Shown here: piece after piece, positions 17,022-23,768 of the stretch | Position numbering within the stretch: position 1 is the first letter of the stretch | How the letters are laid out: the number at the start of each line of letters is the position of its first letter | DNA from: a virus | Virus genome (UHGV): UHGV-0379469 | DNA: 35,405 bases | Direction: 5' to 3' (one strand) | Program-made: the position numbers and the translations under genes | The notes under the pieces: model-generated | Databases searched by the model: none | What the model saw: the letters and a program-made list of their open reading frames with translations, nothing else | What the model was told of the DNA's origin: nothing

Positions 17022-17411
17022 ATGATTGACGCTCATGACTTCACAAGATGGGTGCGCACACAGGACACCCGTCTGGCTCCCGTTCTTCAGGGATTATTTG
17101 ATCTCTACATCCGTGGTCGTGACAACAGAGCACGCACCACAAAACCGGAGAATGCAGACACCCTTTATTTCACAGTAGACGACTGCTACCGCGTGGACTT
17201 CACACCACACGGGCTGGCGTTGCACTGCCTGACACCACACGGAGAATCACTGCTGGCGTATTACGACTCCCCGGCCTCCGTATTTGCGGCAATGCTGGCG
17301 CATCGCACTGCTGGCGGGTGTGCCTCGCTGAGTGAATACACCGCTGAATTTAACCGCCTTTCTGCCCTCTTCTCGCAGGAGTGGCAGCGCGTGACGGGAT
17401 ACCAGCCATGA
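17022..17411 (+). CDS. hypothetical protein preceding the replication gene
   Basis: 129-aa ORF; its stop overlaps the A start (ATGA). Confidence 0.5.
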   Translation: MIDAHDFTRWVRTQDTRLAPVLQGLFDLYIRGRDNRARTTKPENADTLYFTVDDCYRVDFTPHGLALHCLTPHGESLLAYYDSPASVFAAMLAHRTAGGCASLSEYTAEFNRLSALFSQEWQRVTGYQP

Positions 17412-20248
17412 ATGAGTTTGCATGGAGCTGGAATGAACCACGGCCAGCCATTGATCCGGCCAGATTTACGGAGCACAGGCAGGAAACTGAAACCGACCTG
17501 CAACGCGCCATCCGTTACTACCTTGAGGCAGACAAAAAGGCTCTGGAAGAACAGGAAGCGAAGGAGGAAGCCTTTTTCGCACAATCCACCGTGGGTAAAA
17601 AACTCATGGCATCCCTTGAGGAAGCCGGACAGCGTGAAAAGCTGGCACAAAGCATCATCAGCAAGCGTCAGGCAACAGAACAAGACCCGGTGGCCCGTGC
17701 TTTTGCCACACTGAAGGTGCTTCCCGTTTATCTGCGTGAACCTCTGAGCCGCCACCTCTCTTTCCTGCGCAAAAAACAGGAAGCCGATCGCCAGAAAGGC
17801 AAAAAGAGCTGGCAGGCTGAACGCTACGCGCGCGGAACCCTGCGCAAAATATTCGAACGCCTGGACCGCACCGACCACCGCTGGCTGACACCGGGTTATC
17901 GCTCCCTTGCCGGACGCGAACGCCTGGATGATTTGCTTTACCTGCCGCAGCTCAACAAGCACCAGATACAGACGCTGGCCACCATGACGGCGGCGATGTT
18001 CAGCAGCACCTTCGAAAAACTCTGCGATGGCTTTGGCGCGACCGATGGTGAGCTGACCATGGAGGTGGCACTGAAGGCGTATCAGATGCTGGCCCGCATG
18101 GCGTTACACCTGCACGCCATGCCTCCACATTATGACGCACTGACAACAGACAAAGACCGCAAGAACGAACCGGACACGGAACTGCTGCCGGGCGCAATCC
18201 TCCGCCTGACCTGTGCGGAATGGTGGAAACGCAAACTGTGGCTGTTACGTTGCGAGTGGCGGGAAGAACAACTCCGCGCCGCCTGTCTGGTTTCCAGAAA
18301 AACATCGCCCTATCTGAGCCAGGACGCGTTAAGCGAGTTTCGCGCACAGCGCGAGAAAACACGCGATTTCCTGAAAAGTTTCATGCTGGAAAACGAAGAC
18401 GGGTTCACGATTGATCTCGAGACGGTGTATTACGCGGGAGTAAGTAACCCGGTCCACCGTAAAGCAGAAATGATGGCCACCATGAAGGGGCTGGAACTTC
18501 TGGCCGAAGCCCGTGGCGACAGAGCGGTGTTTCTGACTGTCACCTGCCCGTCAAAATACCACGCCACAACAGAGAACGGTCATCCGAATCCCAAATGGAA
18601 CGGGGCCACCATGCGCGACTCCAGCGATTACCTGGTTAACACGTTTTTTGCGGCGGTCCGCAAAAAACTGAACCGCGATGGCCTGCGCTGGTATGGCATC
18701 CGCACGGTGGAGCCTCACCATGACGGCACCGTGCACTGGCATATGATGGTCTTTGCACATCCGGACGAGATTGAAACCATCGTGTCCCATGTCTGCGATA
18801 TTGCCATTCAGGAAGACCGCCACGAGCTGGGCGATGACATAACTCCGCGTTTTAAGGCTGAGTACGTAGACGGCTCAAAAGGCACGCCAACCAGCTACAT
18901 CGCCACCTACATCGGAAAGAACCTGGACAGCCGCGCCGTGGATGGCATCGACCCGAAAACGGGCAAGCCACGCGTTGACCACGAAACCGGAAAATCAATG
19001 GCAGAGAGCGTGGAACGCGCCATCGGCTGGGCGCGCCTTCACCGGGTCCGCCAGTTCCAGTTCTTTGGCATTCCCTCTCGTCAGGTATGGCGTGAACTCC
19101 GCCGCCTTGCCAGCCAGATGGCACGCAACCCGGAAGGCCCACAACGGCTGAAGGATGATGCAATGGATGCGGTACTCGCTGCCGCTGATGCCGGGTGTTT
19201 TGCCACCTACATTGAGAAACAGGGCGGCGTACTTGTTCCACGCAAAGACTACCTGATTCGCACCGCCTACGACCTCGCAGATGAGCTGAACGATTACGGC
19301 GAACAGAGCGTACAGATTTACGGGATCTGGTCACCACTCATCGGGGAGTCTTCCCGTGTGTGCACACATCCGGATAACTGGAAGCTGGTAAGACGTAAAC
19401 CGGAAGCGGAAGACAGCGCCCGCGAAAATGGTTTTGACCTTCAGGGCGGCCCTGCCGCCCCTTGGACTCGTGGCAATAACTGTCCCCGTGTACAGGAAAC
19501 AGACAACAACGGGACAGAACAGCCGGAAGAACGGCCAGCACCGTGGCCGCAGCTTCCTGACGGCGTTGACGTGAACGAATGGGTGCGCTCACTGAAACGG
19601 CACGAACGCCGGGCGCTGATGCGTTCGCTGCGTGACAAACAGGCAAAAAACAGCAGTGATGAAATGCAGAACTGGACACAGAGCCGCAAACAGCCACAGC
19701 CTTTGCCTGATAACCACGAATTACTCGCTAAAGAATGGCGGGAGTCTGCTGAATCTCTCGGCCTGCATATCGGTGAACAGCAGATGCAGCACCTGTTACG
19801 GGGCGGCAGTCTGTACGTTGACGGCAGCATCATTGCACCGCAGGGATTTGAAATTGTACGCAAACCGGATACCCGCCCGGACAGCCGAATCACGCAGCTC
19901 TGGCAACGCCTGAGCCGTAACCACGGCGTAAGCAGCACGGAGATCCGCCATAACCCAGTCGCCAGCTATCTGGAACAACTAGGGGCATCAGACCCTGAAG
20001 CCGCCGCACGCCTGGCATCCACACTTCAGCAAGACCAGAACACCATGAAAACACCCGTTACCGTACTTTCTGACATGCTGCGCGCCATCCGCGACGCAGA
20101 GCACGAACAGAGAATCAGTGAAACAACTGAACGCGCCCGCCGCAAAGCAGACCTGCTGCGGGGTGACCTGACCAGTGGAAACAAAAAACAGACAGAAACG
20201 GGATTCACAAATCCCGTAAATGAGCAAAAAACGCGCCGCGAAATATGA
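17408..20248 (+). CDS. A: replication initiation protein A (HUH rolling-circle endonuclease)
   Basis: HUH motif ...GTVHWHMMVFAH... and catalytic Tyr motif ...TSYIATYIGKN...; about 946 aa, longer than P2 gpA as I recall it (761 aa). Confidence 0.85.
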   Translation: MNEFAWSWNEPRPAIDPARFTEHRQETETDLQRAIRYYLEADKKALEEQEAKEEAFFAQSTVGKKLMASLEEAGQREKLAQSIISKRQATEQDPVARAFATLKVLPVYLREPLSRHLSFLRKKQEADRQKGKKSWQAERYARGTLRKIFERLDRTDHRWLTPGYRSLAGRERLDDLLYLPQLNKHQIQTLATMTAAMFSSTFEKLCDGFGATDGELTMEVALKAYQMLARMALHLHAMPPHYDALTTDKDRKNEPDTELLPGAILRLTCAEWWKRKLWLLRCEWREEQLRAACLVSRKTSPYLSQDALSEFRAQREKTRDFLKSFMLENEDGFTIDLETVYYAGVSNPVHRKAEMMATMKGLELLAEARGDRAVFLTVTCPSKYHATTENGHPNPKWNGATMRDSSDYLVNTFFAAVRKKLNRDGLRWYGIRTVEPHHDGTVHWHMMVFAHPDEIETIVSHVCDIAIQEDRHELGDDITPRFKAEYVDGSKGTPTSYIATYIGKNLDSRAVDGIDPKTGKPRVDHETGKSMAESVERAIGWARLHRVRQFQFFGIPSRQVWRELRRLASQMARNPEGPQRLKDDAMDAVLAAADAGCFATYIEKQGGVLVPRKDYLIRTAYDLADELNDYGEQSVQIYGIWSPLIGESSRVCTHPDNWKLVRRKPEAEDSARENGFDLQGGPAAPWTRGNNCPRVQETDNNGTEQPEERPAPWPQLPDGVDVNEWVRSLKRHERRALMRSLRDKQAKNSSDEMQNWTQSRKQPQPLPDNHELLAKEWRESAESLGLHIGEQQMQHLLRGGSLYVDGSIIAPQGFEIVRKPDTRPDSRITQLWQRLSRNHGVSSTEIRHNPVASYLEQLGASDPEAAARLASTLQQDQNTMKTPVTVLSDMLRAIRDAEHEQRISETTERARRKADLLRGDLTSGNKKQTETGFTNPVNEQKTRREI

Positions 20249-20324: not shown

Positions 20325-21284
20325 ATGAAAATTTGTATCGACGACGGCTCCACCAACATCAAGCTGGCATGGACTGAGAACGGCGAACGCCGCAACGCCA
20401 TCAGCCCGAACAGCTTCAAGTCGGAATGGTCTGCGCCGTTCGGTGGCACGCAGCCCGCGAACTACATGCTTGATAGCGTGCGCTATGGTTTTGATCCGGT
20501 CAGCGATCGCTTTGTCCAGACGACTGACACGCAATATCAGTACAGTGATGTGAATGTCATTGCCATTCATCACGCGCTGGTCAAATCAGGCATCACGCCA
20601 CAGGAGGTGGATGTGGTTGTCACCCTGCCACTGAGCGAGTATTTCGACACAAACGCACAGCCGGACATGGCCAACATCAACCGCAAAAAAGCGAACGTTA
20701 TGCGCCCGGTGGAATACCAGAACGGCGAAGCATTCACTATCCGTAATGTACGGGTTATGCCTGAATCCATTCCGGCTGGCTTTAAGGCACTGGCTGACAT
20801 GAGTCCGTTTGAATCCCTGCTGATTGTGGATTTAGGCGGAACCACGCTGGATGTGGCAAAGGTTCAGGGACAACTGGCAGGTATCAGCCAGGTGTTTTGC
20901 GATCCACACGTAGGCGTTTCCCTGATGGCCGATGCCGTACTGTCGGTGATGGCCACTAACGGTATGCGTACCAGTCACCACATCGCCAATACCATTATTG
21001 AGCACCGTCACGATGAAGCCTGGCTGCGCCAGCACATTCACAATGACGCGCATTACAACAGCCTGATGGCGGTTATTCGTGAAAAGGAGGAGACACTGAA
21101 ACAACGAGTGATCCGCGCGCTGGCGGGTTTTTCCGGTTACGGGCGGGTGATGGTTGTCGGTGGAGGGGCGGAGATTGTGGCACCCGCTATCCGCGAAGCC
21201 TGCGGAGTTAATGCGACTTTCATCGCGGACGGGGTGCCACAATTTGCTCTGGTTAATGGGCTGTACGCAATGAACAAGGAGTAA
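20325..21284 (+). CDS. parM: ParM/StbA actin-like partition ATPase
   Basis: MKICIDDGSTNIKLAW... N-terminus and ...DLGGTTLD..., ...VMVVGGGAE..., ...LVNGLYAM motifs aligning with plasmid R1 ParM as recalled. Confidence 0.8.
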   Translation: MKICIDDGSTNIKLAWTENGERRNAISPNSFKSEWSAPFGGTQPANYMLDSVRYGFDPVSDRFVQTTDTQYQYSDVNVIAIHHALVKSGITPQEVDVVVTLPLSEYFDTNAQPDMANINRKKANVMRPVEYQNGEAFTIRNVRVMPESIPAGFKALADMSPFESLLIVDLGGTTLDVAKVQGQLAGISQVFCDPHVGVSLMADAVLSVMATNGMRTSHHIANTIIEHRHDEAWLRQHIHNDAHYNSLMAVIREKEETLKQRVIRALAGFSGYGRVMVVGGGAEIVAPAIREACGVNATFIADGVPQFALVNGLYAMNKE

Positions 21285-21288
21285 ACCA

Positions 21289-21600
21289 ATGACGACACCA
21301 ACCAGAAGAATAAGTTTCTATCTGAAGCCAGCTGCCGTCAAGAACGAAGGAGAAGCATGCGCCTGGCTGGACAGCCTTACACCAGAAGCCCGCAAAAGCG
21401 GCCAACGCGTGGCTTTTCTGGCCGGGCTGGCACTTCTGAAGACGAATCCGGCAGAGGCTTACCGACTGGCCGCATGGGCTGATGATGAGATGTTACCTGT
21501 GACACAAATCAGCTCAAAAAAGTTTGAAGCACAGTCTGCACCAGTGGCTAAGATAACCAGCCAGATGGCTGGGAATATCCGGGCGTTATTTCCTGAGTAA
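21289..21600 (+). CDS. parR: ParR/StbB-like partition adaptor (DNA-binding)
   Basis: 103 aa directly after parM; RRISFYLKP...LAGLALL...RALFPE pattern resembles ParR. Confidence 0.6.
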   Translation: MTTPTRRISFYLKPAAVKNEGEACAWLDSLTPEARKSGQRVAFLAGLALLKTNPAEAYRLAAWADDEMLPVTQISSKKFEAQSAPVAKITSQMAGNIRALFPE

Positions 21601-21728
21601 AAGCATCTGCACGAAAAATGCTCACGTTTATAGAAACAGTATCATTCCATTTGGCACACTTACTTCAATAATCGATCTGTTAAACAAATAGATTGTCTAT
21701 TATCTATCGATTAAAACGATCAATTATC

Positions 21729-21757
21729 TTGACAGTAATGTGCCTTTTTGTAAGATC
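21729..21757 (+). promoter_or_regulatory. sigma70-like promoter candidate bracketed by an 11-bp inverted repeat
   Basis: TTGACA, 16-nt spacer, TAAGAT; flanked by CAATTATCTTG (21721..21731) and its reverse complement (21775..21785). Confidence 0.35.
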
Positions 21758-21964
21758 GTTCGCATTGTGAGCGACAAGATAATTGCGCGGCATTGTCCAT
21801 GCAAAACGCCCCAATAGCAGCAACTATTGGGGCGTAAAACTCGGTCGGACTCACTTAACCTGATATGCGTGCCTTCCGAAGTAAATCAAAATGTGCGTCG
21901 TATATTTTATTGCTTACACGCACCTCTGTAAAGGCACGCATATTTTTCCTATGAGGTAAATAAA

Positions 21965-22234
21965 GTGCGGGCTAAAACAGGTATTTGCAAGAACCCTCAT
22001 CGTTATAACCCAACATTTCTGTCTCTCCCTGAATATCAAGGACAAGAAGGTCGGCACAAATGCGCTGCCTGTGCTTTTGAGCTAGGCATAAAAGATGCGC
22101 TTGAAGGACGCGCTATGGCTCAGAATGATTTAGTTTTAGCTAACATTCCGTTTAGCCAGGCTGGAACTGTAAGGCACAGAGATGCCTATGAAGCATATGT
22201 TCGTGGTTGGCGATTAATACACAGCAACAATTGA
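21965..22234 (+). CDS. hypothetical protein (hotspot cargo; GTG start)
   Basis: 89-aa ORF followed by a strong intrinsic terminator; no family recognised. Confidence 0.4.
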   Translation: MRAKTGICKNPHRYNPTFLSLPEYQGQEGRHKCAACAFELGIKDALEGRAMAQNDLVLANIPFSQAGTVRHRDAYEAYVRGWRLIHSNN

Positions 22235-22242
22235 TACTTTTG

Positions 22243-22268
22243 AAGCGCCGATAAGGCGCTTTTTTTTG
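22243..22268 (+). terminator. rho-independent terminator
   Basis: AAGCGCC gataa GGCGCTT stem-loop followed by T8. Confidence 0.7.
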
Positions 22269-22720
22269 TTTGCACGATAGTGCACAAGTTTGCACAATTT
22301 TTTTGAACGACTTTTTGTACTTCCGGCCCGCATGGCGGCTGGATCCGTCAAGGATCCGTGCGTGCACAAAAAAATGCGTTTTTTCTGCGCGCAGGTGACG
22401 GGGGAACAGCCCGCGTTTCAGGGGGTAAATAGCATTCCCTGAACGATGTCGCAGCGACACAACAGAATGGCTGTATTTCTCACACTGAGCGTGAAAAAGA
22501 CGTGAGGGCTTTTGATTTGATGGGGTGACAGACAAGGCCGTCAAAATCGCACTGAGGCGGCGAGAACATGCAGTCAACGCGGTGGGATTGCGTAAGAGTC
22601 TGACTGTCGATGATGGCAATAAGCAGGAAAGCGTCGTGAAATTATCTGATTGATACAAGAGCTGGAGAGTCGGGGCATAAATTTTTTATGCCCCGGCGAA
22701 GCAGCAGACAAGCGAAGCGC
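22268..22720. other. probable cos / packaging region (not pinpointed)
   Basis: Noncoding tract at the 3' end of Q, where P2-type phages carry cos; three TGCAC motifs phased at 10 bp (22271, 22281, 22291), GGATCCGT direct repeat, stem-loop at 22670..22694. Confidence 0.3.
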
Positions 22721-22721
22721 G

Positions 22722-23768
22722 TCAGGATGTGGGCTGGGTGTCCAGCAGTGCGTAAGGGTTAAAGCGGATCACCTCTTCGCCAAGCCAGTCATTGATGTGC
22801 TTCATGGCCTCCATGACGGGCATCAGCTCGTTAATTGCGTAAACCCGCGCGGCCTTCTCCACATCACCAAACGCACTTTTTTCGCCCGGCATCGCCCCCA
22901 TCAGTTGCGGCGGAACGCGGTGCGCAGCCAGCACATCATCACGGGATGCCGCCTTAACATTCATGAACTCATCCTTTGCGGTGATCTGCTGGAACGGCAA
23001 AATTTGCACCCCCTCTTTGCCCCCGTTGGGCGCATGGATGAGCACGTTTTTAAACGCACCACCACCACGCGCACCCTGTAACGTTTCTTTCAGGGAGTCC
23101 ATGCTTTCGCGGTTTACCTGCGCTGCACCGATGTAGATGATGCACCCGGCGTGGGATCCATTGTCGTAGTACAGTTTTCTGAACATGTCCGCCGAATGAG
23201 ACAGGCTGGCCGAGAGTAATGCGCCAAGATATTCCGGCATGCCGTAAATTTCCTGGTTAATGTCCGGATTCATCAGGTGGCACACTTTGCCAGGGCGAAA
23301 CTGAAACGCGTCCTTGCCATCCTGCACATACCACCATGACTCAAGATCGCTTCCGCGTCGCATGTATTTCGCCAGGGCGTGCCGTAATTTAAGCGGCTCG
23401 CCGAGCATATTGCTCCGAAGCTCAAGGAATGCGTTACCGAACACAAACCAGTCCAGCGCCAGCGCCGAGAAATCCTGCCGGGAAAGCAGCGGGTGCGGGA
23501 TGTAGCAACCCAGCAACACATTGCGCTTAAAGTAAAGCGCAGACTGATGCCAGGACGTTTGCCGGGCAGCTCTTGCCAGACCGTACCAGTCCACCGGGGT
23601 TTCATACCACCGCCCGTTATCAGCACAGTACATATTGTCCAGCAGGTCATGCCCGGTCAGGCGATAAGGACCATCAAATGTGAATGCACTGAGCGACGAT
23701 TCTTTCCTGAGCGCATCAGCGAGATCAATGCGTGAACTCATGCGCACTTTTTTATTTTTTCTGCTCAT
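22722..23768 (-). CDS. Q: portal protein Q
   Basis: 348-aa ORF downstream of and overlapping (ATGA) the large terminase gene; size and position as P2 gpQ. Confidence 0.85.
   Translation of the reverse strand: MSRKNKKVRMSSRIDLADALRKESSLSAFTFDGPYRLTGHDLLDNMYCADNGRWYETPVDWYGLARAARQTSWHQSALYFKRNVLLGCYIPHPLLSRQDFSALALDWFVFGNAFLELRSNMLGEPLKLRHALAKYMRRGSDLESWWYVQDGKDAFQFRPGKVCHLMNPDINQEIYGMPEYLGALLSASLSHSADMFRKLYYDNGSHAGCIIYIGAAQVNRESMDSLKETLQGARGGGAFKNVLIHAPNGGKEGVQILPFQQITAKDEFMNVKAASRDDVLAAHRVPPQLMGAMPGEKSAFGDVEKAARVYAINELMPVMEAMKHINDWLGEEVIRFNPYALLDTQPTS

What the first reader, a model, noticed from the sequence alone, without database searches (positions are those of the whole stretch)
21965..22268. 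Orphan 89-aa ORF with its own terminator in the A-to-cos variable region
The GTG-initiated ORF (MRAKTGICKNPHRY...HKCAACAFELGIKDALEG...) has no recognisable family. It is preceded by the palindromic region above and followed by a strong intrinsic terminator (22243..22268), forming a self-contained transcription unit in the region where P2 carries tin/old-type defence cargo, as I recall.
Basis: inference. Interest (0 to 1): 0.45.

Follow-up and report, generated by a model that had tools for sequence, protein, structure and literature searches.

The report
Antisense-gated phage gene from GATC restriction systems
The 89-codon ORF is a real, strongly conserved prophage gene with its own promoter, a predicted antisense RNA and a terminator; it encodes a stand-alone copy of an undescribed zinc-type domain that elsewhere is built into GATC-specific restriction-modification operons and their nucleases, so it probably reads DNA methylation state rather than being a random orphan.

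Summary
The GTG ORF 21965-22234 has a GAGG Shine-Dalgarno, is preceded by inverted repeats and is followed by a terminator. It is not family-less: it matches PHROG 3941 (E 6e-49) and about 1,600 uncharacterised ~85-aa protein clusters, with dN/dS 0.02-0.15. It is intact in all relatives checked. It has no Pfam, NCBIfam or PADLOC hit. The confident AlphaFold model (pLDDT 90) has no PDB or BFVD neighbour.

Two new findings:
- **Mobile unit.** About 260 nt of upstream DNA, the ORF and the terminator move as one block between three slots in three temperate-phage types. The "palindromes" are a convergent antisense promoter (invariant TTTACA-17-TAnnnT) and a hairpin ending a predicted ~100-nt cis-antisense RNA. 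The control region is GATC-rich.
- **Link to GATC restriction.** Outside phages the domain sits inside Dam-like methylase + DpnII operons (44 of 80 species-level loci; 0 in 1.16 Mb of controls). It occurs alone or in tandem on NOV_C or HNH nucleases.

My best reading is a nuclease-free, methylation-sensitive GATC-site DNA reader that modulates restriction or exclusion. Zinc binding, DNA binding, specificity and direction of effect are all inferred. Rivals are a type-I-toxin-like module, anti-restriction and a controller-like regulator.

The parts
21674..21757 (.). Cluster of three GATC sites (21674, 21718, 21754) flanking and overlapping promoter P1
   Evidence: the window holds 83 GATC in 35.4 kb (mean 0.61 per 260 nt, maximum 3), and this cluster reaches the maximum. 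Homologous leaders carry 3-5 GATC per 263 nt against 0.4-1.4 in dinucleotide shuffles, with P<0.05 in 13 of 16.
21729..21756 (+). Promoter P1 of the ORF's mRNA: -35 TTGACA (21729-21734), 16-nt spacer, -10 TAAGAT (21751-21756). Predicted transcription start about 21763.
   Evidence: 10 of 12 consensus matches. The -35 TTGAnn and -10 TAnnAT elements are conserved in position in 16 diverged lineages.
21763..21964 (+). About 200-nt structured 5' leader of the mRNA
   Evidence: MFE -72.3 kcal/mol, z = -3.9. Leader identity between lineages (74-94%) exceeds third-codon-position identity of the ORF (44-76%) in every comparable pair.
21799..21897 (-). Predicted cis-antisense sRNA (~100 nt) complementary to the mRNA leader
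   Evidence: Runs from Panti to the hairpin. Fold -35.6 kcal/mol, z = -3.9. Rfam gives only sub-threshold minus-strand hits to antisense-RNA families (sar, ctRNA_pGA1) at the hairpin. No expression data.
21806..21835 (-). G+C-rich hairpin (12-13 bp). Likely terminator of the antisense RNA, and also a stem-loop near the 5' end of the mRNA leader.
   Evidence: -22.7 kcal/mol. A hairpin of -14 to -24 kcal/mol occupies the same position in 14 of 16 lineages, with different inner-stem sequences and pairing kept. The U-tract is short (UUUGCAUG).
21904..21932 (-). Convergent antisense promoter Panti: -35 TTTACA (21932-21927), 17-nt spacer, -10 TAAAAT (21909-21904)
   Evidence: 10 of 12 matches. The plus-strand GTAAAG (minus-strand CTTTAC, which carries five of the six -35 bases) and the T, A and T of TAnnnT are invariant columns in 16 of 16 lineages. 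The TTTAC[AT]-N16-18-TAnnnT signature is present in 79 of 79 IMG/VR copies and 0 of 19 R-M-embedded copies.
21858..21875 (+). 5' arm of a long-range leader helix (ACCU + ATATGCGTGCCTT). It lies inside the region covered by the antisense RNA.
   Evidence: (I3).
21931..21957 (+). 3' arm of the long-range helix (AAGGCACGCATAT, 21931-21943) plus AGGU (21954-21957), which pairs with ACCU and so buries the Shine-Dalgarno GAGG (21953-21956)
   Evidence: MFE and centroid structures. In other lineages a local hairpin covers the SD instead.
21965..22234 (+). ORF 'X': 89 aa. Putative zinc ligands are C8, H12, C33 and C36. Repeated motif Q25...R30-H31 and S64-Q65...R70-H71.
   Evidence: invariant C8 H12 R30 G41 Q65 R70; >=90% Q25 H31 C33 C36 S64 H71; pLDDT 90.4; dN/dS 0.02-0.15.
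22242..22270 (+). Intrinsic terminator of the unit (8-bp stem, 5-nt loop, T8)
   Evidence: Every phage homologue examined also has a strong hairpin plus T-run directly after its stop codon. Homology with P88 resumes at about 22271.

Best explanation
What it is. The ORF is a genuine, strongly constrained gene. It encodes the free-standing form of an uncharacterised ~85-aa domain, called X here. The domain has a Cys-x3-His ... Arg-His-Lys-Cys-x2-Cys signature, presumably a zinc site, followed by a cysteine-less repeat of the same Ser-Gln-x-Gly-x2-Arg-His motif. Its confidently predicted fold has no solved relative.

The mobile unit. Together with about 260 nt of control DNA and its terminator, the ORF forms a mobile moron (about 21700-22270).

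Control.
- A sigma-70 promoter about 200 nt upstream produces an mRNA with a long structured leader that buries the Shine-Dalgarno.
- A convergent promoter about 30 nt upstream of the start codon, on the other strand, produces a ~100-nt cis-antisense RNA that ends at the 21806-21835 hairpin.
- GATC sites are concentrated at both promoters, so Dam methylation may tune the switch.

Function. Outside phages the same domain is a component of GATC-specific restriction-modification operons (Dam-like methylase + DpnII endonuclease + DpnA-like methylase). There it occurs either alone or in tandem at the N-terminus of PD-(D/E)XK (NOV_C) or HNH nucleases encoded in the same operons. I therefore infer that X is a DNA-recognition module that reads GATC-type sites in a methylation-sensitive way. 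The phage copy has no nuclease and lives in Dam-methylating hosts, so it probably acts by occupying DNA, marking or masking under-methylated GATC DNA. That would modulate restriction or exclusion rather than cut DNA.

Shown: the gene, the family, the mobile unit, the promoter and hairpin conservation, and the R-M linkage. Inferred: zinc binding, DNA binding, GATC and methylation specificity, the existence of the antisense transcript, and the direction of the biological effect.
For: Real gene and family:
- PHROG 3941, E 6e-49.
- 172 representative homologues and 1,598 clusters, found in many phyla.
- Invariant C8, H12, R30, Q65, R70.
- dN/dS 0.02-0.15.
- Intact in relatives.

Fold:
- pLDDT 90.4, pTM 0.83.

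Mobile unit in three slots:
- The P88-like ParR-cos slot (window, L046, L049, L050).
- Directly after a CI-like repressor (BIS08P22, L057, L063 and others).
- Between Q and holin on the opposite strand (Providencia phage, L051-L069).
- The upstream 230-260 nt is alignable across all of these and is more conserved than synonymous sites.

Antisense design:
- Invariant TTTACA-17-TAnnnT on the minus strand, followed by a hairpin whose sequence varies while pairing is kept.
- Structure z-scores of about -3.9.

GATC enrichment in the control region.

R-M linkage:
- All 6 metagenomic look-ups place X next to Type II R-M genes.
- In 80 species-level genome loci, Dam-like methylase, DpnII or DpnA-like methylase lie within 6 kb in 44. 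X is usually 2-160 nt from one of them; the commonest order is methylase-X-DpnII-methylase.
- Controls: 0 Dam-like methylase or DpnII hits in 680 kb of phage loci and 479 kb of NOV_C-only loci.

Fusions:
- Among 56 long homologues: NOV_C 25, HNH 9, HNH_2 5, DndB/DGQHR 3, WYL 1.
- All 5 tandem-X-NOV_C proteins looked up, and all 3 on long metagenome contigs, lie in the same GATC cassettes, typically just upstream of the DpnA-like methylase.
Against: - There are no expression, binding or phenotype data of any kind.
- Zinc and DNA binding rest only on residue conservation, a mildly basic composition and the domain architectures.
- The Dam-like (D12) methylase family is mostly, not exclusively, GATC-specific. 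GATC specificity of X is guilt by association.
- X's position in the cassettes is variable and sometimes on the opposite strand, so its role there is unclear.
- The window copy has fewer GATC sites than most lineages and none near Panti.
- The U-tract after the minus-strand hairpin is short or interrupted, and RNAalifold on a sequence-based alignment gives only a weak consensus.
- Plasmid-borne solitary copies lack the antisense module.
- 36 of the 80 genome loci show no R-M neighbour with my models.
- Phage DNA grown in Dam+ hosts is already protected from DpnII-type enzymes, so the benefit to an E. coli prophage is not obvious.
Confidence: 0.5

Rival explanations
1. Type-I-toxin-antitoxin-like stabilisation module. 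X would be a growth-inhibiting DNA-binding toxin whose translation is held off by the cis-antisense RNA. Loss of the prophage or plasmid would then let the stable mRNA be translated (hok/sok or symE/symR logic).
For: - Convergent antisense promoter and an sRNA overlapping a long structured leader that hides the SD.
- The gene sits beside the ParM/ParR partition genes in the window.
- On plasmids it lies near YoeB/YefM, RES and resolvase genes.
- The leader is under strong constraint.
Against: - X is soluble and mildly basic, not a hydrophobic peptide.
- Hundreds of homologues sit unguarded inside R-M operons with no room for an antisense promoter.
- Plasmid copies lack the antisense module.
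- Toxicity has not been tested.
Confidence: 0.13
2. Anti-restriction by site masking or dominant-negative action. X would be a nuclease-free copy of the recognition module of GATC-directed nucleases (tandem-X-NOV_C, X-HNH, perhaps DpnII partners). It would be made in a pulse on entry, before the antisense RNA accumulates, to shield the element's DNA.
For: - The same domain is the N-terminal module of nucleases in R-M cassettes.
- It is carried by phages and conjugative plasmids.
- Antisense gating fits zygotic-induction-type expression.
Against: - All phage copies are in Dam+ Enterobacterales or Orbales, whose DNA is already GATC-methylated.
- The tandem-X nucleases examined are mostly from Bacteroidota.
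- A protein made after DNA entry is late for protection.
- The slots it occupies (after cI; antisense to the late operon) are the ones usually expressed in lysogens.
Confidence: 0.17
3. Controller-like transcription factor. X would be a non-HTH analogue of R-M C proteins that times endonuclease expression. The phage copy would be an orphan regulator that autoregulates, or that interferes with resident or incoming R-M systems.
For: - It is a small basic protein inside Type II R-M operons, most often directly upstream of the endonuclease gene (13 of 44).
- In one arrangement it is paired with a 70-aa HTH_3 protein.
- WYL and DndB-type regulators carry the domain.
- GATC-centred palindromes sit at its own promoters.
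Against: - Its position in the cassettes is not fixed: after the second methylase, between endonuclease and methylase, or on the opposite strand.
- No HTH is present and no conserved C-box-like operator has been identified.
- Tandem fusion to nucleases points to targeting rather than transcription.
Confidence: 0.15
4. Chance ORF or decaying remnant with no function.
For: PGAP leaves it unannotated in many genomes that carry an identical sequence. It has a GTG start and is short.
Against: - Full-length PHROG match.
- Cross-phylum family with invariant residues.
- dN/dS 0.02-0.15.
- Only synonymous changes among E. coli copies.
- Confident fold prediction.
Confidence: 0.01

Closest known systems
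Controller (C) proteins of Type II restriction-modification systems (C.PvuII, C.Esp1396I; PMC2175313, PMC3351150)
   Same: Small (~80-100 aa) accessory proteins encoded inside Type II R-M operons, often just upstream of the endonuclease gene. Presumed to bind DNA.
   Different: C proteins are Xre-type helix-turn-helix dimers with C-box operators. X has no HTH (no Pfam hit), a Cys/His signature and a predicted fold with no PDB match. Its position in the cassettes varies, and it is also fused to nucleases.
Lar/RalR-RalA of the Rac prophage (restriction alleviation; type I toxin-antitoxin). Recalled from my own knowledge (Guo et al. 2014, NAR), not checked here.
   Same: A small prophage-encoded Cys-rich protein linked to restriction biology and opposed by an antisense small RNA.
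   Different: No sequence relationship: the Pfam scan, which includes the Lar family, finds nothing. RalR is reported to be a DNase acting on EcoKI-type restriction. X is linked to GATC Type II systems and has no recognisable catalytic motif.
P22 pid moron (PMC3573128)
   Same: An ORFan of ~86 aa in a temperate-phage late-region moron, transcribed against its neighbours and followed by a Rho-independent terminator. Highly expressed from prophage BTP1 (PMC7067206).
   Different: Not homologous: the X profile finds nothing in P22. Pid lies between orf25 and orf80 and acts on the host DgoR/dgo operon.
P2 old/tin hotspot between gpA and gpQ/cos (PMC9122126)
   Same: The same cos-proximal interval of a P2-family genome, documented as a hyper-variable cargo site enriched in anti-phage systems. 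P88-like phages also swap cargo here.
   Different: X has no similarity to Old, Tin or any PADLOC model. In this phage ParM/ParR also lie in the interval. No defence phenotype is known.
Cis-antisense control modules of mobile elements (hok/sok, P22 sar/ant, IS10 RNA-OUT with a Dam-sensitive pIN). From my own knowledge; sar is annotated in NC_002371.
   Same: Convergent promoters, a 70-100-nt antisense RNA with a 5' stem-loop and a terminator hairpin that overlaps the target's 5' leader. As in IS10, GATC sites lie in promoter elements.
   Different: No sequence or Rfam membership: the best hit is 22 bits against gathering thresholds of 43-45. The regulated product is a soluble Cys/His protein.
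Methylation-state readers of GATC (DpnI winged-helix domain, SeqA, MutH). From my own knowledge.
   Same: The proposed activity: discriminating GATC by adenine-methylation state. Association with Dam-type methylation.
   Different: No fold or sequence similarity was detected. GATC reading by X is inferred, not shown.
PADLOC candidate system PDC-S36 and other DUF3883/NOV_C nucleases (PMC3424549)
   Same: The tandem-X-NOV_C proteins match PDC-S36 at E about 1e-50 over the nuclease part.
   Different: The window protein lacks the nuclease and does not match PDC-S36. The X module of these proteins has not been described in the held literature.

Membership tests
PHROG 3941 (unknown function) | Full-length match to the family profile | tested here: met
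   E 6.3e-49, residues 4-89 matched to profile positions 1-86 of 86.
Unnamed 'X' domain family (this report) | C-x3-H ... R-H-K-C-x2-C-A signature plus a second S-Q-x-G-x2-R-H repeat, in ~85 aa | tested here: met
   Alignment A1: invariant C8, H12, R30, G41, Q65, R70; >=90% Q25, H31, C33, C36, A37, S64, H71. My profile scores 104 bits on the window ORF.
Unnamed 'X' domain family (this report) | Zinc binding and DNA binding | not testable with these tools
   Inferred from the Cys/His pattern, a net charge of about +4 and the fusion partners only.
Accessory component of GATC (Dam-like methylase + DpnII) R-M cassettes | Encoded next to a D12 methylase, DpnII or a DpnA-like methylase | tested here: not met
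   True for homologues (44 of 80 loci). The window itself has none of these genes, so the window copy is a solitary phage form.
Phage moron (own promoter and terminator; present or absent between related phages) | Autonomous promoter and terminator flanking the gene, and presence/absence polymorphism | tested here: met
   P1 and the terminator. Absent from P88, where homology resumes at 22271. The same block occurs in three phage architectures. Promoter activity itself was not measured.
R-M controller (C) proteins | Xre/HTH_3 fold | tested here: not met
   No HTH family in Pfam at E<=1. The model has no PDB neighbour.
R-M controller (C) proteins | C-box operator upstream of a C-R operon | not tested
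   No operator search was done in the cassettes. X's position in them is variable.
Type I toxin-antitoxin | Antisense RNA overlapping the toxin mRNA's 5' region | tested here: inconclusive
   Predicted from the conserved convergent promoter and hairpin. No transcript data.
Type I toxin-antitoxin | Small toxic (usually membrane-active) protein | not testable with these tools
   The sequence is soluble and basic with no hydrophobic stretch, read directly from the 89-aa sequence. Toxicity is unknown.
Lar/RalR restriction-alleviation family | Match to the Pfam Lar family | tested here: not met
   The only Pfam hit at E<=1 is a spurious 13.6-bit match to a methyltransferase dimerisation domain.
Known anti-phage defence systems (PADLOC 2.0), including Old and Tin | Match to any system model | tested here: not met
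   0 families at E<=10.
P22 Pid | Sequence homology | tested here: not met
   The X profile finds nothing in the six-frame translation of P22 at E<=10. The Pid sequence was read and is unrelated.
Rfam antisense RNA families (sar, ctRNA_pGA1) | Score at or above the gathering threshold | tested here: not met
   22 bits against thresholds of 43-45, over the terminator hairpin only.

The most novel reading that the evidence does not exclude
X is a new DNA-binding fold that reads the adenine-methylation state of GATC. As tandem-X-NOV_C or X-HNH it would define unrecognised GATC-directed restriction nucleases paired with DpnA-like methylases. As a free protein it would be a nuclease-less self/non-self reader, used both by DpnII-type R-M cassettes and, under an antisense-RNA and Dam-sensitive switch, by prophages of Dam+ bacteria to mark or mask under-methylated DNA.
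Probability: 0.3. Interest if true: 0.8.

Novelty: new variant of a known kind. Interest (0 to 1): 0.62.

Why it matters
DpnII/MboI-type systems are textbook R-M systems, yet a widespread extra component seems to have gone unnoticed. That component is a small Cys/His protein, together with related tandem-domain nucleases and DGQHR proteins in the same operons.

If the domain reads GATC methylation, three things follow:
- It adds a new fold to the short list of methylation readers (DpnI, SeqA, MutH).
- It predicts new restriction enzymes.
- It gives a concrete, testable function to a moron carried by about 3% of complete E. coli genomes (166 of 5,426) and by P2-like, P22-like and lambdoid prophages of Salmonella, Providencia, Proteus and Gilliamella.

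The conserved antisense-RNA and GATC-rich control region is also a compact model for epigenetically gated prophage gene expression.

Tried and rejected
- Pfam, NCBIfam and PADLOC scans of the ORF gave nothing usable.
- The first word-indexed homology search with the single sequence found only 2 near-identical clusters. The exhaustive representative search and a profile query were needed.
- Pseudogene in relatives: rejected. The indel is in the terminator T-run, and the 503458 record is error-ridden.
- Plasmid leading-region (anti-defence) context: not seen in the three plasmids inspected. The gene is solitary there, near TA, resolvase or TIR genes.
- Homology to P22 Pid: rejected.
- Methylated-GATC-directed (Type IV-like) reading of the tandem-X nucleases: disfavoured, because they sit in the same operons as GATC methylases.
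- A metagenome scan with the tandem-X-NOV_C alignment mostly returned NOV_C-only proteins. These served as a negative control.
- RNAalifold on a MAFFT alignment of the predicted sRNAs gave only a weak consensus. Per-sequence folds were more informative.
- Literature searches by accession, PHROG id, PDC names and keyword combinations found no description of the family.
- Neighbours of non-R-M genomic copies were heterogeneous and uninformative.
Full report
**Setting.** The window is a P88-like (Xuanwuvirus, P2-family) prophage of E. coli. Gene A (17381-20248) is followed by ParM (20325-21284) and a ParR/StbB-type protein (21289-21600). Next come the finding, the cos-proximal region, and then genes Q and P on the minus strand. 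The interval between gpA and gpQ is the documented P2 cargo hotspot that holds old and tin (PMC9122126).

**The observation.** The ORF runs 21965-22234 (GTG start, 89 aa), with GAGG 8 nt upstream. The terminator is an 8-bp G+C-rich stem at 22242-22262 followed by T8. It folds at -13.4 kcal/mol with z = -3.5. Upstream lie a perfect 12-bp hairpin (21806-21835) and a perfect 13-nt inverted repeat (21863-21875 / 21931-21943).

**Is it a gene?** Yes.
- It matches PHROG 3941 end to end (E 6e-49).
- An exhaustive HMMER search finds 172 representative homologues. A profile search finds 1,598 90%-identity clusters, nearly all 83-90 aa, with no Pfam domain and named only "hypothetical".
- A 45-sequence alignment has invariant C8, H12, R30, G41, Q65 and R70, and near-invariant Q25, H31, C33, C36, S64 and H71.
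- dN/dS between prophage homologues is 0.02-0.15.
- The 701-nt region is present at >=95% identity in 166 of 5,426 complete E. coli genomes.
- In five relatives the protein is identical. Both ORF substitutions are synonymous, and the common 1-base indel lies in the terminator T-run.
- The only "disrupted" copy is in a phage record in which portal, terminase and ParM are also fragmented.
- Pfam, NCBIfam and PADLOC give nothing.

**A mobile, self-contained unit.** Homologues that are 50-63% identical occur in three slots:
- the same ParR-cos slot of other P88-like prophages;
- directly downstream of a CI-like repressor in P22-like and other lambdoid prophages, the position lambda uses for rexAB;
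- between the Q antiterminator and the holin, on the opposite strand.

P88 itself lacks the gene. It carries two other ORFs there, one with a ClpX-type zinc finger.

The 230-260 nt upstream of the ORF is alignable across all these contexts. Between lineages it is 74-94% identical, while the ORF's third codon positions are only 44-76% identical. Every copy is followed at once by a hairpin and a T-run. So promoter, leader, ORF and terminator move as one block.

**What the "palindromes" are.**
- *Promoter P1.* The plus strand carries P1 (TTGACA-16-TAAGAT, 21729-21756), conserved in position in all lineages.
- *Antisense promoter.* The minus strand carries a convergent promoter (TTTACA 21932-21927, 17 nt, TAAAAT 21909-21904). 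Its plus-strand complement GTAAAG, and the T, A and T of the -10 TAnnnT, are invariant alignment columns in 16 of 16 diverged lineages, while the intervening bases vary.
- *Distribution of the signature.* It is present in 79 of 79 IMG/VR copies, 3 of 3 phage records, 4 of 4 E. coli copies and the window. It is present in 0 of 19 R-M-embedded copies and 0 of 3 plasmid copies. In the genome set it appears only in 8 Enterobacterales or Orbales copies.
- *Predicted antisense RNA.* About 70-100 nt downstream on the minus strand, 14 of 16 lineages have a -14 to -24 kcal/mol hairpin. Its outer GCCCC base is conserved, and its inner stem differs in sequence while keeping pairing. In the window this is the 21835-21806 hairpin. 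The predicted product is a ~100-nt cis-antisense RNA (about 21897 to 21799; -35.6 kcal/mol, z -3.9) complementary to the mRNA leader.
- *SD occlusion.* In the leader fold, the 13-nt repeat forms a long-range helix. ACCU (21858-21861) pairing with AGGU (21954-21957) extends that helix over the Shine-Dalgarno. In other lineages a local hairpin covers the SD.
- *Caveats.* Rfam gives only sub-threshold minus-strand hits to antisense-RNA families at the hairpin. The U-tract is short, RNAalifold on a sequence-based alignment is weak, and there are no transcript data.

**GATC.** The leaders carry 3-5 GATC per 263 nt, against 0.4-1.4 in dinucleotide shuffles (P<0.05 in 13 of 16). The sites fall at conserved positions:
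- just upstream of the P1 -35;
- at the antisense RNA's 5' end, within GAGATCTC or GTGATCAC palindromes;
- in the Panti spacer.

The window copy keeps three GATC within 81 nt around P1, which equals the densest 260-nt interval in the window. It has lost the sites near Panti.

**Where else the domain lives.**
- *Metagenomic look-ups.* Six of six non-phage copies sit next to Type II R-M genes. Three are beside a Dam-like (D12) methylase with a 420-aa Type II endonuclease, two beside a D12 methylase + DpnA-like methylase + DpnII, and one beside a DpnA-like methylase alone.
- *Genome scan.* In a one-genome-per-species scan returning 80 loci from many phyla, my own profiles find these genes within 6 kb in 44 loci. 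X usually lies 2-160 nt from one of them. The commonest orders are methylase-X-DpnII-methylase (13 loci) and methylase-DpnII-methylase-X (8 loci). Other positions and opposite-strand insertions also occur.
- *Controls.* There are no D12 or DpnII hits in 680 kb of phage loci or in 479 kb of NOV_C-only loci.
- *Loci without R-M.* These include all the Enterobacterales and Orbales (mostly prophage-type) copies, alongside loci from other phyla.
- *Fusions.* Among 56 longer homologues the partners are NOV_C 25, HNH 9, HNH_2 5, DndB/DGQHR 3, WYL 1 and HEPN 1. The nuclease fusions carry two complete Cys/His copies at the N-terminus and match PADLOC candidate PDC-S36 in the nuclease part.
- *Context of the fusions.* All 5 tandem-X-NOV_C proteins looked up, and all 3 on long metagenome contigs, lie in the same GATC cassettes. 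They typically sit just upstream of the DpnA-like methylase, sometimes with a DGQHR protein. Because the host's GATC is methylated in these cells, the module is unlikely to direct cleavage to methylated GATC.
- *The window.* It contains no methylase or DpnII gene.

**Interpretation.**
- *Shown.* It is a real gene. It belongs to a large undescribed family with a Cys/His signature and no structural relative. It travels as a mobile unit with conserved convergent promoters, hairpin and GATC sites. The family has a strong, specific genomic linkage to GATC-type R-M operons and their nucleases.
- *Inferred.* The domain is a zinc-stabilised DNA-recognition module that reads GATC-type sites in a methylation-sensitive way. 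The phage copy has no nuclease and lives only in Dam+ hosts, so it would act by occupying under-methylated DNA, under an antisense-RNA and possibly Dam-sensitive switch.
- *Open.* I cannot decide whether the net effect is exclusion or defence (favoured by the hotspot and the company the family keeps), anti-restriction, controller-like regulation or type-I-toxin-like stabilisation. These are listed as rivals with tests.

**Comparison with known systems.** It resembles R-M C proteins in size and location but fails their defining HTH feature. It resembles Lar/RalR-RalA (recalled, not verified) and hok/sok or sar/ant in regulatory logic, without homology. It shares slot type and size with P22 Pid but is unrelated to it. 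It is not a member of any PADLOC system. No paper in the held library mentions the family.

**Verdict.** This is a new variant of a known kind: a phage moron and an R-M accessory protein, carrying an apparently undescribed domain, and it is readily testable.

Noticed in passing
window 20325-21600: An actin-type plasmid partition pair sits between gene A and the ORF in an integrated P2-family prophage: ParM/StbA at 20325-21284 and ParR/StbB at 21289-21600. The same pair is present in P88 and in phage 520873.
   Followed up: partly
window 21660-21730: AT-rich repeats with ATCGAT/GATC cores lie directly downstream of parR. They could be a parC-like centromere or part of the ORF's promoter region. 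The two readings were not separated.
   Followed up: no
window 17381-20248: The replication protein gpA is 955 aa, with the Phage_GPA domain at residues 194-518 and long N- and C-terminal extensions. Phage 520873 annotates it as several CDSs.
   Followed up: no
window 22337-22358: The cos-proximal region carries GGATCCGT twice, 11 nt apart (GATC at 22342 and 22353).
   Followed up: no
window 22671-22695: A perfect 11-bp hairpin (CGGGGCATAAA ttt TTTATGCCCCG) lies just beyond the 3' end of gene Q (22722-23768, minus strand). It is probably a terminator.
   Followed up: no
L009 (NC_049341, phage 503458): The portal, terminase, ParM and this ORF are all split into fragments. The record appears to carry many indel errors, so its "pseudogenes" should not be trusted.
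   Followed up: yes
L008 4293-4960 (phage P88 gp19-gp20): P88 carries different cargo in the same slot: a 110-aa protein with a ClpX-type C4 zinc finger and a 112-aa protein with no family.
   Followed up: partly
L274-L278, L219 (Flavobacterium and other metagenomic loci): DpnII-type cassettes in Bacteroidota are larger than the textbook three genes. They also contain a tandem-X-NOV_C nuclease, a DGQHR/DndB-like protein and unknown proteins of 166-184 aa.
   Followed up: partly
L100 6317-7612, L097 6271-7584: Some X genes head an operon with a DUF3644 protein that matches PADLOC candidate PDC-S19 (E 4e-119), followed by a Dam-like methylase, a Type II endonuclease and a TIR protein. The operon sits next to AbiEii on an integrative element.
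   Followed up: no
E. coli genomes (e.g. H38, NZ_CM168011.1): PGAP annotates the ORF (WP_001390707.1) in only some of the genomes that carry an identical sequence, so annotation-based counts underestimate its prevalence.
   Followed up: partly
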